A stretch of DNA of 64,000 bases from Octopus vulgaris (lineage: Eukaryota). This document shows positions 56,501 to 59,500 of this stretch, one piece after another. The stretch is taken from positions 38,502,001 through 38,566,000 of the forward strand of contig OX597827.1 in the NCBI GenBank assembly GCA_951406725.2. The letters run 5' to 3'. The position numbers were made by a program. The stretch's first letter is position 1. Each line of letters begins with the position of its first letter.

Positions 56501-59500
56501 GGAAGACGGCTTATATAGACGATAATGAGAGAGTATGTTGCAATATTGGCAGGATTAAGATAACAAACACAAGAAACCAAGAAACTGAAGTTTGGAAAAG
56601 GAAACAGAATAAAAGAAATTGTAAGATAACAACGAATATTTTAAACATTAATATACACGAACTAATGAATACCTAAGTAAGTGCTTAAAAATGCGATTGG
56701 CAGATTTGTTAGAACGTCGGACAAACTGCCAGCGATAGTTACGGGTCAAGTTCTTTGTTCAAATCCTGGCAAATTGTACCTTTTAACCTTTCGACTCGAT
56801 GAAATAAAGTACCAGTGAGTAACTGAGATAGATTAAGTAAGCATCACTACAGAAGTGGGTTCCTAGGATTTGTATCCTCATAACTTTCTATAAAATGAAT
56901 ACTTTTTAATGAAATTTTCTACAAATACCTTTCAGATGGTATAAATTATAACTATATCGGAATTTGTGGAAAATTTTTTAGAGGAGGATGAGAGGAGTTT
57001 CAGATAGATAACGCGCCCCGGCTTTGGTTTTTCATTTAACTTTCTGTAAAACGAATACTTTTTAAGGAAATTTTCTACAAATATTTTTCAGACTGTATAG
57101 ATTACGATTATATCAGAATTTGTGGGAAAATTTTCGGGGGAGGGTGAAAGAAGTTTCAAATAATTATCACGCATTGAAATTTGTTTGCTCATAATTTCAG
57201 AAAAATGGGTATTTTTTAATGAAAATTTCTACAAATACCTTTCAGAAGTTGCAGATTAAGATTATATCAGATTTAGAGTGTAAAAAAAAGGGGGTAGGGC
57301 GGATATTTTGCACACCTCGAATTTGTTTCCTTCTACGTTTTTAATGTAGATTACAATTATTTTGAAAAATATACTTTTGAAGATTATTCCACTCTTTCCC
57401 TTTTAGAATTTAATTATTTTTTAAAACAAAAATGAAATTTTCCAGAACGCAGGTGTGGCTGTGTGGGAAGAAGCTTGCTTCCGATATATCGTTTGTTAGT
57501 CGAATTGCTGTCTTTGTATCACACGTGTTTTTTGGTTGTCTTGGCGGTGCGGCGTTTTCCCTCTTGTGTAATGGAGGGGCGTCGTGTGATGATTTGTGAA
57601 GATTTGAATTACTCTTCTTCAGACTTTGTGTCGTCTGAGGAAGAAATGGTAAAGGGTTTGAAGAAAACTGACGAAGTTAATGGAAACGAAGAATATGCAA
57701 AGGTGACGAAGAAAAAAGCGAAGATATAAGGCTGGAGGAATTGAATAAATTCAAGGAAATTATTAAAAGGGAGGGGAACGAGTAAAGGTGCCCCCCCCCC
57801 TCCAAAGATGTTTTAAAAGAAAAAAATGAGAAAACATACTCGGTAGCAGCTAGGCAGATTAAAGTCATGTTAATGGCTCAAATAGAAAAGGCACTTAAGC
57901 CAATCTGGCAGGGAATTACCTACCTTGTCAGAGGTAGAAAATTTGGAGCAGTAGAGGTGCGGTTTCGGGAGGTAGCTACTACCAGGCTGCACTCAACAAC
58001 AACATCAAAAACGGATGAAGTGCTACTTCTACCTATATACCTTGGGAGACGTGCTTCCAGAGCTAGGGTGGAAGACACACCCCCAGAAGTGGATGTAGCC
58101 TGACTGATAGCTGCCATACTGCTAGGCATGGAGGAAAAGGTGGTGGTCCTCCAGGCCACCAGAACACTCCACAGGAATTGGCAAGAGCAAAAAAATGGAC
58201 ATGGTAATACAGGTTGCCTCGGAAGATATTGAAAGTATGGTAGAGATTATTACGGTCGGTGACGTTACACTAAAAGTCAGAGTGTTAAGGAGGATTCCGC
58301 GGTGCAATAAATGTGGCCTGAAAGGTCACATTAGAGCGGATTGTCCTCCACTATCTGTGAAGGCTAGGGAAAGTCAAGACCCCGAGAAAGTAGTTGACAC
58401 TCCACTATGTGGAGGCATGAGAAGGAGAGTGAAACGGCACCACAGACGAAAAGAAGTACCAGCGTGGAGGAAGAGGAGGTGAACACCAGCTGGGAAACGG
58501 CGGGAAAAAAGAGAACGAAGAAGAGAAATAAGACACGTAGTAAAGGACGATCCCCAACCCACACCTATAGCCATTCTACTCCAACCACTCCCTACAGACA
58601 CCAACCATTTCTTATATATATTTTTCCAGCTGACAGACAGACGTATAAGCACAAACATATACTTACATACACAAAAATACATAAACGTAAGTGTTTCGTG
58701 AAAACGTGTGTATTTATGTATATATGTGAGTGTGTGTGCGAGTTGTGTTCGAGTGTTTCATTGTTTCAACTCGCCTGTGGACATGAAAGACAACGGGTGT
58801 ACGTGTTGTGCGTCCATGTTTTTCAAATATCAGCTGAAAAAAAATTAAAGGTATAAAAATATATTACGGAAATTGCAAAACAAATAGTTTCTAGTGATAT
58901 TCATATCCGAAAGATAACCCTAAAAAACTGTGGAGTGTTCTGGTGGCCTGGAGGACCACCACCTTTTCCTCCATGCCTAGCAGTATGGCAGCTATCAGTC
59001 AGGCTACATCCACTTCTGGGGGTGTGTCTTCCACCCTAGCTCTGGAAGCACGTCTCCCAAGGTATACAGGTAGAAGTAGCACTTCATCCGTTTTTGATGT
59101 TGTTGTTGAGTGCAGCCTGGTAGTAGCTACCTCCCGAAACCGCACCTCTACTGCTCCAAATTTTCTACCTCTGACAAGGTAGGTAATTCCCTGCCAGATT
59201 GGCTTAAGTATCACACGTGTTTTTTGGTTGACTTGGCGGTGCGGCGTTTTCCCTCTTGTGTAATGGAGGGGCGTCGTGTGATAATTATTTGAAACTTCTT
59301 TCACCCTCCCCCGAAAATTTTCCCACAAATTCTGATATAATCGTAATCTATACAGTCTGAAAAATATTTGTAGAAAATTTGGTATAGATTCCATGAGATT
59401 AAATTTATCTCATTGAATGACGAAACGCATGTGATTGGGAAAACCCAATCTACAGTTTTCTAAGTGACCAAAGCAGGATGTAGATCACGGTTATGTTGAC

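What the first reader, a model, noticed from the sequence alone, without database searches (positions are those of the whole stretch)
58928..59380. 453-bp three-jump templated insertion: a readable record of polymerase template switching
Seen: segment A (282 bp, inverted copy of 57893-58174, one mismatch), B (75 bp, direct copy of 57516-57590, one mismatch) and C (103 bp, inverted copy of 57068-57170). They are joined by microhomologies GT (59208-59209) and GTGAT (59278-59282). The templates step progressively further upstream, alternate strands and span two unrelated repeat types, so this is not transposition. Established: this is the signature of FoSTeS/MMBIR or polymerase-theta templated insertion. 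It also creates a near-perfect 282-bp inverted repeat ~750 bp apart, a potential dsRNA source against the retroelement.
Basis: partly seen in the sequence, partly recalled or inferred. Interest (0 to 1): 0.7.

Follow-up and report, generated by a model that had tools for sequence, protein, structure and literature searches.

The report
Local three-piece templated insertion in octopus-like DNA
A 453-base patch is stitched from three near-exact copies of sequences lying 0.75 to 2.3 kb upstream, the kind of scar left when a DNA polymerase hops between nearby templates; it is a clean example of a known mutation type, not a new one.

Summary
58928-59380 consists of:
- A2, the reverse complement of 57893-58174, 281 of 282 identical;
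- B2, a direct copy of 57516-57590, 74 of 75;
- C2, the reverse complement of 57068-57170, 103 of 103.

The pieces overlap by GT and GTGAT.

The copies are local. C2 matches unit 2 of the adjacent 156-bp tandem array at 100%, against 81% and 78% for the neighbouring units. A2 carries a stop codon private to this decayed ORF1-like copy. Ordinary repeats in the window are 64-92% alike.

B is bounded by a perfect 8-bp inverted repeat (chance about 0.1%). The outer 11 nt of C recur inside A (about 1%).

The best reading is a single, recent break-repair or replication-restart event with serial microhomology-primed template switches, of the MMBIR/FoSTeS kind. The piece lengths and template distances fit Pol theta poorly. 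One outer junction has no microhomology.

I had no reads, no empty allele and no eukaryotic genome collection, so an assembly artefact or a multi-copy composite cannot be excluded. The dsRNA idea is structurally possible (282-bp stem) but untested.

Interest is modest: a new instance of a known kind.

The parts
56868..57271 (+). 156-bp tandem array, 2.6 units that are 76-82% alike; unit 2 holds template C1
57068..57170 (+). Template C1 (103 bp), inside unit 2 of the array
   Evidence: 103 of 103 to C2 in reverse complement; units 1 and 3 match C2 at only 81% and 78%
57516..57590 (+). Template B1 (75 bp), in unclassified sequence just upstream of the ORF1-like homology
   Evidence: 74 of 75 to B2, same strand
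57518..57525 (+). Left arm (ATCACACG) of the perfect 8-bp inverted repeat that bounds B1
   Evidence: predicted hairpin
57583..57590 (+). Right arm (CGTGTGAT) of the inverted repeat that bounds B1
   Evidence: such ends occur in 85 of 63925 same-sized segments of the window and 88 of 319625 in shuffles
57684..58413 (+). Decayed ORF1/gag-like repeat copy (two RRM-like domains plus a CCHC knuckle), with an in-frame stop and a frameshift near 58180-58200
57893..58174 (+). Template A1 (282 bp), inside the ORF1-like copy
   Evidence: 281 of 282 to A2 in reverse complement
58101..58103 (+). In-frame stop private to this copy; A2 carries it too
   Evidence: 113 of 116 aligned homologues have a residue here
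57934..57946 (+). 13-mer inside A1 that is identical to the last 11 nt of C2 plus the first 2 nt of the right flank
58175..58927 (.). 753-nt spacer between the A arms: the rest of the ORF1-like copy, then low-complexity sequence with no other copy in the window
58928..59209 (-). A2, inverted copy of A1; the mismatch is at 59067
59208..59282 (+). B2, direct copy of B1; the mismatch is at 59231. Overlaps A2 by GT and C2 by GTGAT
59278..59380 (-). C2, inverted copy of C1, no mismatch
59370..59382 (+). Right outer junction: the last 11 nt of C2 plus GG of the flank. It matches A1 at 57934-57946 and is the reverse complement of A2 at 59156-59168

Best explanation
This is a real and evolutionarily recent mutation, made in one event. 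A broken or stalled 3' DNA end at the site 58927|59381 was extended by low-processivity repair or restart synthesis. That synthesis dissociated and re-annealed several times on single-stranded DNA within the 2.3 kb to its left, then rejoined the original duplex. This is the serial template switching of the MMBIR/FoSTeS kind, and it could equally be called synthesis-dependent end joining with unusually long tracts.

The path I infer reads along the bottom strand, from the right end of the break:
1. The end primes on a 2-nt match inside A1 and copies 11 nt.
2. It slips through that 11-nt homology onto unit 2 of the 156-bp array and copies 103 nt (C).
3. It re-anneals through ATCAC/GTGAT onto the opposite strand at the right edge of B1 and copies 75 nt.
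4. There the new strand can fold on its own 8-bp inverted repeat and come off the template.
5. It re-anneals through 2 nt at the left edge of A1 and copies 282 nt towards the break.
6. It is joined to the other end without homology.

Shown directly: the three copies, their local origin, the inner microhomologies, the inverted repeat at the ends of B and the 11-nt homology at the end of C. Inferred: that it was a single event, its direction, and the break and the enzymes involved.

A by-product is a nested inverted repeat, with arms of 282 bp (753 nt apart) and 103 bp (2107 nt apart).
For: - Exact anatomy, with 451 of 453 bases identical to the templates.
- Local origin. C2 is 100% identical to unit 2, against 81% and 78% for units 1 and 3. 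A2 carries the in-frame stop at a position where 113 of 116 aligned homologues have a residue, the same residue in 73. tblastn with 150 homologues hits only the source copy and the mosaic in the 64 kb.
- Inner junctions have 2 and 5 bp of microhomology, the range given for MMBIR junctions (PMC2621351, abstract passage).
- B is bounded by a perfect 8-bp inverted repeat. The same feature occurs in 85 of 63925 equal-sized segments of the window and 88 of 319625 in shuffles. The predicted DNA hairpin has z = -2.35.
- The outer 11 nt of C recur in A, 13 nt counting the flank. With the same geometry elsewhere in the window this happens in 702 of 62893 placements.
- No target-site duplication, poly(A) or terminal repeats.
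- The sequence returns to the same locus after four junctions within 453 bp. Chimeras from multiple displacement amplification arise about once per 22 kb of read (495 in 10,878,753 bases; PMC1855051, Results section read).
- The three pieces show equally low divergence (1 of 282, 1 of 75, 0 of 103), which is consistent with one event.
Against: - No sequencing reads, no second individual and no related genome could be examined. Neither the junctions nor an empty site are independently verified.
- Junction 58927|58928 has no microhomology and no straddling match of 9 nt or more.
- The 11- to 13-nt match at the right junction is only suggestive (about 1%).
- Tracts of 75 to 282 nt, with templates 0.75 to 2.3 kb away, are longer and more distant than the short templated insertions described in yeast and human (templates within about 100 bp; PMC8421209, Introduction read).
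- The multi-copy test outside the window used protein proxies only, and that search was insensitive. It missed known 62%-identical relatives.
- The direction of the A mismatch is ambiguous. Among the 11 closest homologues, 6 carry the A2 state and 0 the A1 state. Among all 144 aligned, 32 carry the A2 state and 22 the A1 state.
Confidence: 0.68

Rival explanations
1. Artefact. The mosaic was created in vitro (polymerase template switching during amplification or library making) or by the assembler, and does not exist in the animal's genome.
For: In-vitro strand-displacement chimeras have the same signature. In PMC1855051 (abstract and Results read), 85% were inverted joins with intervening deletions, most involved segments under 10 kb apart, and 76.8% showed 2 to 21 nt of complementarity. 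No reads were available to check.
Against: - Four junctions in 453 bp followed by a return to the same locus is unlikely at about one chimera per 22 kb of read. It would also have to win the assembly consensus.
- The copies differ from their templates at 2 of 453 positions. A chimera of one molecule would not show this without added errors.
- The flanks continue for kilobases as ordinary unique and repeat sequence.
Confidence: 0.12
2. Several successive events. First an inverted duplication of about 1.1 kb (57068-58174) was inserted at 58928. Two internal deletions and a flip of B across its 8-bp inverted repeat followed.
For: - The order A-B-C is exactly that of a reverse-complemented 57068-58174.
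- B's ends are an inverted repeat, so flipping B would leave both junction sequences unchanged. This explains both of B's boundaries at once.
Against: It needs four independent rearrangements in the time in which only 2 of 453 substitutions accumulated. With B in the inverted orientation, the A/B junction would have 0 rather than 2 bp of microhomology (my reading). Each step would still be a template switch or a microhomology deletion, so this differs in timing, not in kind.
Confidence: 0.1
3. Reverse-transcriptase origin. A read-through transcript covering the array and the ORF1-like copy was copied into cDNA by a retroelement reverse transcriptase that jumped along and between templates. The cDNA was then captured at a break.
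For: - A and C are antisense to the ORF1-like reading frame and lie in the order expected for a first-strand cDNA of a plus-strand transcript.
- Both outer junctions are essentially blunt, as expected when a ready-made fragment is captured.
- Template jumping by such enzymes is known (recalled; the listing includes a preprint on group II intron-like reverse transcriptases in break repair, seen only in the search listing).
Against: - B is in the sense orientation, so an antisense RNA or a DNA template would be needed as well.
- There is no poly(A), no target-site duplication and no reverse-transcriptase gene. Pfam found none in the 49 open frames of 100 codons or more that I scanned, or in the five frames around the locus.
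- The source copy is dead, with a stop and a frameshift.
Confidence: 0.05
4. The A-B-C block is a composite mobile or multi-copy element that inserted here, for example capture by a Helitron or Pack-type transposon.
For: The window is dense in repeats. The 156-bp unit also occurs in a foldback-like element at 62401-63179.
Against: - No second copy of the mosaic, or of B, exists in the 64 kb.
- There are no terminal inverted repeats, target-site duplication or Helitron-type ends (the Helitron end motifs are recalled).
- The pieces match the adjacent copies specifically, not merely their families.
- The 136-residue frame spanning C-B-A has no match in the protein collections. That test is weak.
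Confidence: 0.03

Closest known systems
MMBIR / FoSTeS templated insertions and complex rearrangements (Hastings et al. 2009, PMC2621351; MMB-TI, Osia et al. 2021, PMC8421209)
   Same: Nearby templates, both orientations, several switches in one event, 2 to 5 bp of microhomology (one extendable with a mismatch, 8 of 9 at B/C), and a return to the original template.
   Different: The human events were described at kilobase-to-megabase scale, or as short inserts with templates within about 100 bp. Here the tracts are 75 to 282 nt and the templates lie 0.75 to 2.3 kb away. One outer junction has no microhomology. Dependence on replication or on particular enzymes is not testable here.
Polymerase theta-mediated end joining with templated inserts ('delins'; van Schendel et al. 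2016, PMC5068794), and synthesis-dependent MMEJ (snap-back and loop-out)
   Same: Reiterated priming, extension and dissociation from a break end. Secondary-structure-forming repeats guide the synthesis, as the inverted repeat at B may do. Synthesis is error-prone, which could explain 2 mismatches in 453 bases.
   Different: In that study the average insert was about 10 bp, and 37-44% of inserts mapped within 20 bp of the break. This insert is about 45 times longer and its templates are hundreds to thousands of bases away.
Short-range template-switch mutations under the four-point model (Walker et al. 2021, PMC7954356)
   Same: A transient switch to the opposite strand nearby creates inverted repeats. 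Some such events appear to involve pre-existing hairpins.
   Different: Those events involve one excursion of tens of bases within a replication fork. Here there are three, perhaps four, excursions of up to 282 nt.
In-vitro chimeras from multiple displacement amplification (Lasken and Stockwell 2007, PMC1855051)
   Same: Inverted joins with intervening deletions, segments under 10 kb apart, and 2 to 21 nt of complementarity at the junction.
   Different: Those are single junctions at about one per 22 kb of read. They are not four clustered junctions that return to the starting locus in an assembled consensus.
Hairpin-RNA (hpRNA) loci born from inverted duplications (Drosophila; PMC10317233 and PMC10292708, seen only in the search listing)
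   Same: A long, near-perfect inverted duplication of a selfish-element sequence with a sub-kilobase loop.
   Different: Nothing is known here about transcription, small RNAs or targets. The duplicated element is already dead, and its known relatives are only 62-64% identical at the protein level.

Membership tests
Replicative / break-induced template-switch insertion (MMBIR/FoSTeS, MMB-TI) | The inserted sequence is copied from a nearby genomic template | tested here: met
   451 of 453 bases identical to templates 0.75 to 2.3 kb upstream. The match is to these specific copies: 100% against 81% and 78% for the array units, and a shared private stop.
Replicative / break-induced template-switch insertion (MMBIR/FoSTeS, MMB-TI) | Microhomology at the switch points | tested here: inconclusive
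   The two inner junctions have 2 and 5 bp. The right outer junction has a possible relay of 2 + 11 nt through A (chance about 1%). The left outer junction has 0 bp.
Replicative / break-induced template-switch insertion (MMBIR/FoSTeS, MMB-TI) | Complexity: several switches, with pieces in both orientations, in one event | tested here: met
   Three pieces: inverted, direct, inverted. That it was one event is inferred from the equally low divergence of the pieces.
Replicative / break-induced template-switch insertion (MMBIR/FoSTeS, MMB-TI) | The event arose in vivo: an allele without the insertion exists, and the junctions are supported by independent molecules | not testable with these tools
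Polymerase theta templated insertion (TMEJ delins) | Short insert (about 10 bp on average) templated from the immediate flank (within about 20 bp) | tested here: not met
   The insert is 453 bp in pieces of 75 to 282 nt, with templates 753 to 2313 bp away. Compared with PMC5068794.
Polymerase theta templated insertion (TMEJ delins) | Accompanying deletion at the break | not testable with these tools
   This needs the pre-insertion allele.
Transposition or retroposition of a mobile element | Target-site duplication, terminal repeats or poly(A), and other copies of the same unit | tested here: not met
   None at the edges. No other copy in the window. Tests outside the window used weak protein proxies only.
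LINE 5' inversion by twin priming | Inverted and direct parts are adjacent, essentially non-overlapping parts of one element copy, flanked by a target-site duplication and with a 3' poly(A) (definition recalled) | tested here: not met
   A2 duplicates A1 in full. The mosaic also contains array sequence and a direct piece. No poly(A) or target-site duplication.
Non-LTR retrotransposon ORF1 (the 'retroelement' that supplies A) | RRM-type RNA-binding domain(s) plus a CCHC knuckle, in a multi-copy family (architecture recalled from the literature on ORF1 proteins) | tested here: met
   CCHC knuckle PF00098, E = 9e-4, just under the cut-off. 265 representative relatives, the named ones from Octopus species. 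Model of relative P0007: pLDDT 78, with tandem-RRM matches at E = 2e-5 but low TM-scores of 0.22 / 0.40.
Non-LTR retrotransposon ORF1 (the 'retroelement' that supplies A) | Linked reverse-transcriptase / endonuclease ORF2 | tested here: not met
   No such domain downstream, or in the 49 open frames of 100 codons or more that were scanned, or in the five frames around the locus. This copy is a fragment, so the retroelement assignment remains probable rather than shown.
Hairpin-RNA (endo-siRNA) locus | Long inverted repeat able to form dsRNA | tested here: met
   If transcribed, 57880-59220 folds into a 282-bp stem with one mismatch, MFE -793.5 kcal/mol.
Hairpin-RNA (endo-siRNA) locus | Transcription across both arms, small RNAs, and a complementary target | not testable with these tools
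   No expression data. The only near-identical target known is the dead source copy itself.

The most novel reading that the evidence does not exclude
In one step, the template-switch event created a newborn hairpin locus with nested inverted repeats of 282 bp and 103 bp. If it is transcribed in this octopus-like genome, it would yield long perfect dsRNA. That RNA could be a substrate for siRNA production against the ORF1-like repeat family or for heavy A-to-I editing. The locus would then be a dated, mechanistically readable example of how such loci arise.
Probability: 0.08. Interest if true: 0.55.

Novelty: new member of a known kind. Interest (0 to 1): 0.3.

Why it matters
Multi-jump templated insertions are mostly known from human disease loci, cancers and model-organism assays. 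A clean germline example in a cephalopod-like genome shows that the same scar occurs in natural genome evolution. All templates are still in place next to the copy, an inverted repeat sits exactly at the ends of one piece, and an 11-nt homology sits at the end of another. The example also gives base-level hints about what makes the polymerase let go and where it lands. It shows how one repair event can create a long inverted repeat, the raw material for hairpin RNAs or for later instability. On present evidence it does not change what is known about these pathways.

Tried and rejected
- Rfam at gathering thresholds over the whole window: 0 matches. ARAGORN: 0 tRNA genes.
- The promoter/terminator scan uses bacterial consensus sequences and says nothing about this eukaryote-like sequence. 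I disregard it.
- Word-indexed protein search with the 136-residue frame spanning C-B-A: 8 candidates, none at E <= 0.001. The same search with the 105-residue A1 frame: 2 candidates, none. Both covered near lengths only. The tool missed relatives that the exhaustive search later found, so these blanks are weak.
- Exact look-up of three frames (two spanning the mosaic, one from A1): none of the 3 is in the collection.
- Profile search of solved structures with alignment A1: 9 matches, all at E >= 0.38, with only weak nucleocapsid zinc-knuckle hits.
- ESM Atlas look-alikes for relative P0030: top scores 0.90 or lower. They point to CCHC proteins and to ZCCHC3-type RNA-binding domains, as leads only.
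- Search for further templated patches in the flanks 58500-58927 and 59381-59900 against 50-64 kb on both strands, exact matches of 12 nt or more: only low-complexity hits apart from the 13-mer at the right junction.
- Using the A1/A2 mismatch to decide which copy changed gave an ambiguous answer.
- Helitron, Pack-type capture and twin priming were considered and rejected on end structure (end motifs recalled).
- I did not run complex prediction, build_rna_model or a genome-contig scan. None bears on this question, and genome contigs holds only bacteria and archaea.
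Full report
**What is there**

The finding's coordinates hold exactly.
- 58928-59209 is the reverse complement of 57893-58174, 281 of 282 identical. The difference is at 59067 / 58035.
- 59208-59282 is a same-strand copy of 57516-57590, 74 of 75 identical. The difference is at 59231 / 57539.
- 59278-59380 is the reverse complement of 57068-57170, 103 of 103 identical.
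- Neighbouring pieces overlap by GT and by GTGAT, so 282 + 75 + 103 - 7 = 453.
- The templates lie in the order C1, B1, A1 on the plus strand. The copies lie in the order A2, B2, C2.
- The window has no N.

**Is it more than chance, and where did the pieces come from?**

The window is non-coding, repeat-rich, eukaryote-like DNA. Its features:
- a roughly 430-bp SINE-like family with at least ten copies;
- microsatellites;
- one DDE transposase fragment.

Copies of its dispersed repeats are 64-92% identical. Among the self-comparison rows of 60 bp or more, only A, B, C and a 340-bp tandem array at 23139-24160 reach 95%.

C1 sits in unit 2 of a 156-bp tandem array (56868-57271). C2 is 100% identical to that unit, against 81% and 78% for units 1 and 3.

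A1 sits inside a decayed ORF1/gag-like reading frame.
- The frame has 265 representative relatives. The best are 62-64% identical, and the named ones come from Octopus bimaculoides, O. vulgaris and O. sinensis.
- It has an in-frame stop at 58101-58103 where 113 of 116 aligned relatives have a residue, and a frameshift near 58180-58200.
- A2 carries the same stop.
- tblastn with 150 relatives finds only this copy and the mosaic in the 64 kb.

So all three pieces were copied from the DNA immediately upstream, after that DNA had already decayed. They are not independent insertions of family members.

**The 'retroelement'**

- Pfam sees only a CCHC knuckle, marginally.
- A model of the relative P0007 (pLDDT 78) has two RRM-like domains before the knuckle. 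Its best PDB matches are tandem-RRM proteins at E = 2e-5, with low whole-chain TM-scores.
- This is the architecture I recall for ORF1 proteins of many non-LTR retrotransposons.
- No reverse transcriptase lies nearby or in any of the open frames scanned. The assignment is therefore probable, not shown.
- B1 lies upstream of the detectable protein homology, which starts at 57684. It remains unclassified.

**Junctions**

lays out each junction against its two templates.
- A/B shares 2 bp.
- B/C shares 5 bp, or 8 of 9 if one mismatch is allowed.
- The left outer junction, 58927|58928, shares nothing. No local match of 9 nt or more straddles it.

Two features were not in the finding.
- First, B1 begins with ATCACACG, two bases after its left edge, and ends with CGTGTGAT. 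This is a perfect 8-bp inverted repeat exactly at its ends. With the same end ambiguity, 85 of 63925 equal-sized segments of the window have such ends, and 88 of 319625 in shuffled sequence. The single strand is predicted to form that hairpin.
- Second, the last 11 nt of C2 recur inside A1 at 57934-57944, and in reverse complement inside A2. The match extends to 13 nt with the first two flank bases. With the same geometry elsewhere in the window, an 11-mer at either end of the shorter segment recurs in the longer one in 702 of 62893 placements. That is suggestive, not strong.

**Mechanism**

These features fit a nascent 3' end that repeatedly came off one template and re-annealed nearby by a few bases.

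Reading along the bottom strand from the right side of the break, every step but the last has a primer-template match:
1. 2 nt inside A1;
2. an 11-nt slip onto the array;
3. 5 nt onto the far edge of B1 on the other strand;
4. release where the new strand can fold on its 8-bp repeat;
5. 2 nt onto the left edge of A1;
6. 282 nt of synthesis back towards the break;
7. a join without homology.

Read in the other direction, the very first priming step would have no homology. I therefore prefer the first direction. This is inference.

Comparison with described pathways:
- The pattern matches MMBIR/FoSTeS as described: complex events, both orientations, 2 to 5 bp junctions and low-processivity synthesis with repeated switches (PMC2621351, passages). 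Imperfect microhomology and multiple templates are also described (PMC8421209, Introduction and one Discussion subsection read).
- Short-range template switches that create inverted repeats, some linked to pre-existing hairpins, are documented in great apes (PMC7954356, passages).
- Polymerase theta alone is a poor fit. Its inserts in C. elegans average about 10 bp and mostly map within 20 bp of the break (PMC5068794, passages).

**Rivals**

- *Artefact.* This cannot be excluded without reads. Amplification chimeras share the signature (PMC1855051). But they occur about once per 22 kb of read, and here four junctions in 453 bp return to the same locus in a consensus. The copies also differ from their templates at 2 positions.
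- *Stepwise history.* A full inverted duplication, then two deletions and a flip of B across its inverted repeat, would explain both ends of B neatly. It needs four events in a very short time.
- *cDNA origin.* This fits the antisense order of A and C and the blunt outer joins. It does not fit the sense orientation of B, the lack of poly(A), or the dead source copy.
- *Mobile composite element.* There are no terminal features and no second copy in the window. Outside the window I could test this only through protein proxies, which were blank but insensitive.

**The dsRNA suggestion**

If the region were transcribed, it would fold into a 282-bp stem with one mismatch, with a further 103-bp pairing between C1 and C2. 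Whether it is transcribed is unknown. The only near-identical target known is the dead source copy.

**What stayed unchecked**

- Copy number in the genome, the empty allele, read support and expression are therefore all open.
- The hpRNA papers and several repair papers were seen only as search listings.

**Verdict**

- The template-switch interpretation is well supported by the sequence but not independently verified.
- The Pol theta option and the dsRNA function are weak.
- This is a new, unusually legible instance of a known mutational class.

Noticed in passing
window 2394-2781, 4681-5142, 21585-21994, 22000-22398, 33578-33976, 35406-35802, 38480-38890, 43927-44330, 59771-60226, 63383-63870: A SINE-like family of about 430 bp, on both strands, with copies 64-87% alike and an internal microsatellite. 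From memory it resembles the abundant octopus SINE. ARAGORN and Rfam find no tRNA-like part. One copy lies 390 bp to the right of the mosaic.
   Followed up: partly
window 23139-24160: A tandem array of three 340-bp units at 99.7-99.9% identity. It is the only other very young duplication in the window, of similar apparent age to the mosaic.
   Followed up: partly
window 62401-63179: A foldback-like palindrome of about 780 bp. Its arms are 74-91% complementary and each contains a copy of the 156-bp unit that supplies template C. The 156-bp repeat is therefore part of a dispersed, hairpin-forming family.
   Followed up: partly
window 57448-57484: A stretch of about 37 nt, 32 bp upstream of template B1, matches the head of the SINE-like family at 86-91% (copies at 21594-21625 and 43932-43968). 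I did not work out what it means for the 5' end of the ORF1-like element.
   Followed up: no
window 45463-45825: An open frame with a DDE_3 transposase domain (PF13358, E = 2e-10). This is a DNA-transposon remnant, and the only Pfam hit among the 49 frames of 100 codons or more that were scanned.
   Followed up: no
proteins P0026 and P0086 (hits): Two database proteins carry the ORF1-like domain fused to host-type domains: LDL-receptor class A repeats in one, astacin plus ShK in the other. They are probably gene-model chimeras over repeat insertions.
   Followed up: no
window 29704-29816 and 30120-30239; 33411-33581 and 36191-36360: Older inverted repeat pairs at 90-91% identity. Inverted duplications are not rare in this stretch.
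   Followed up: no
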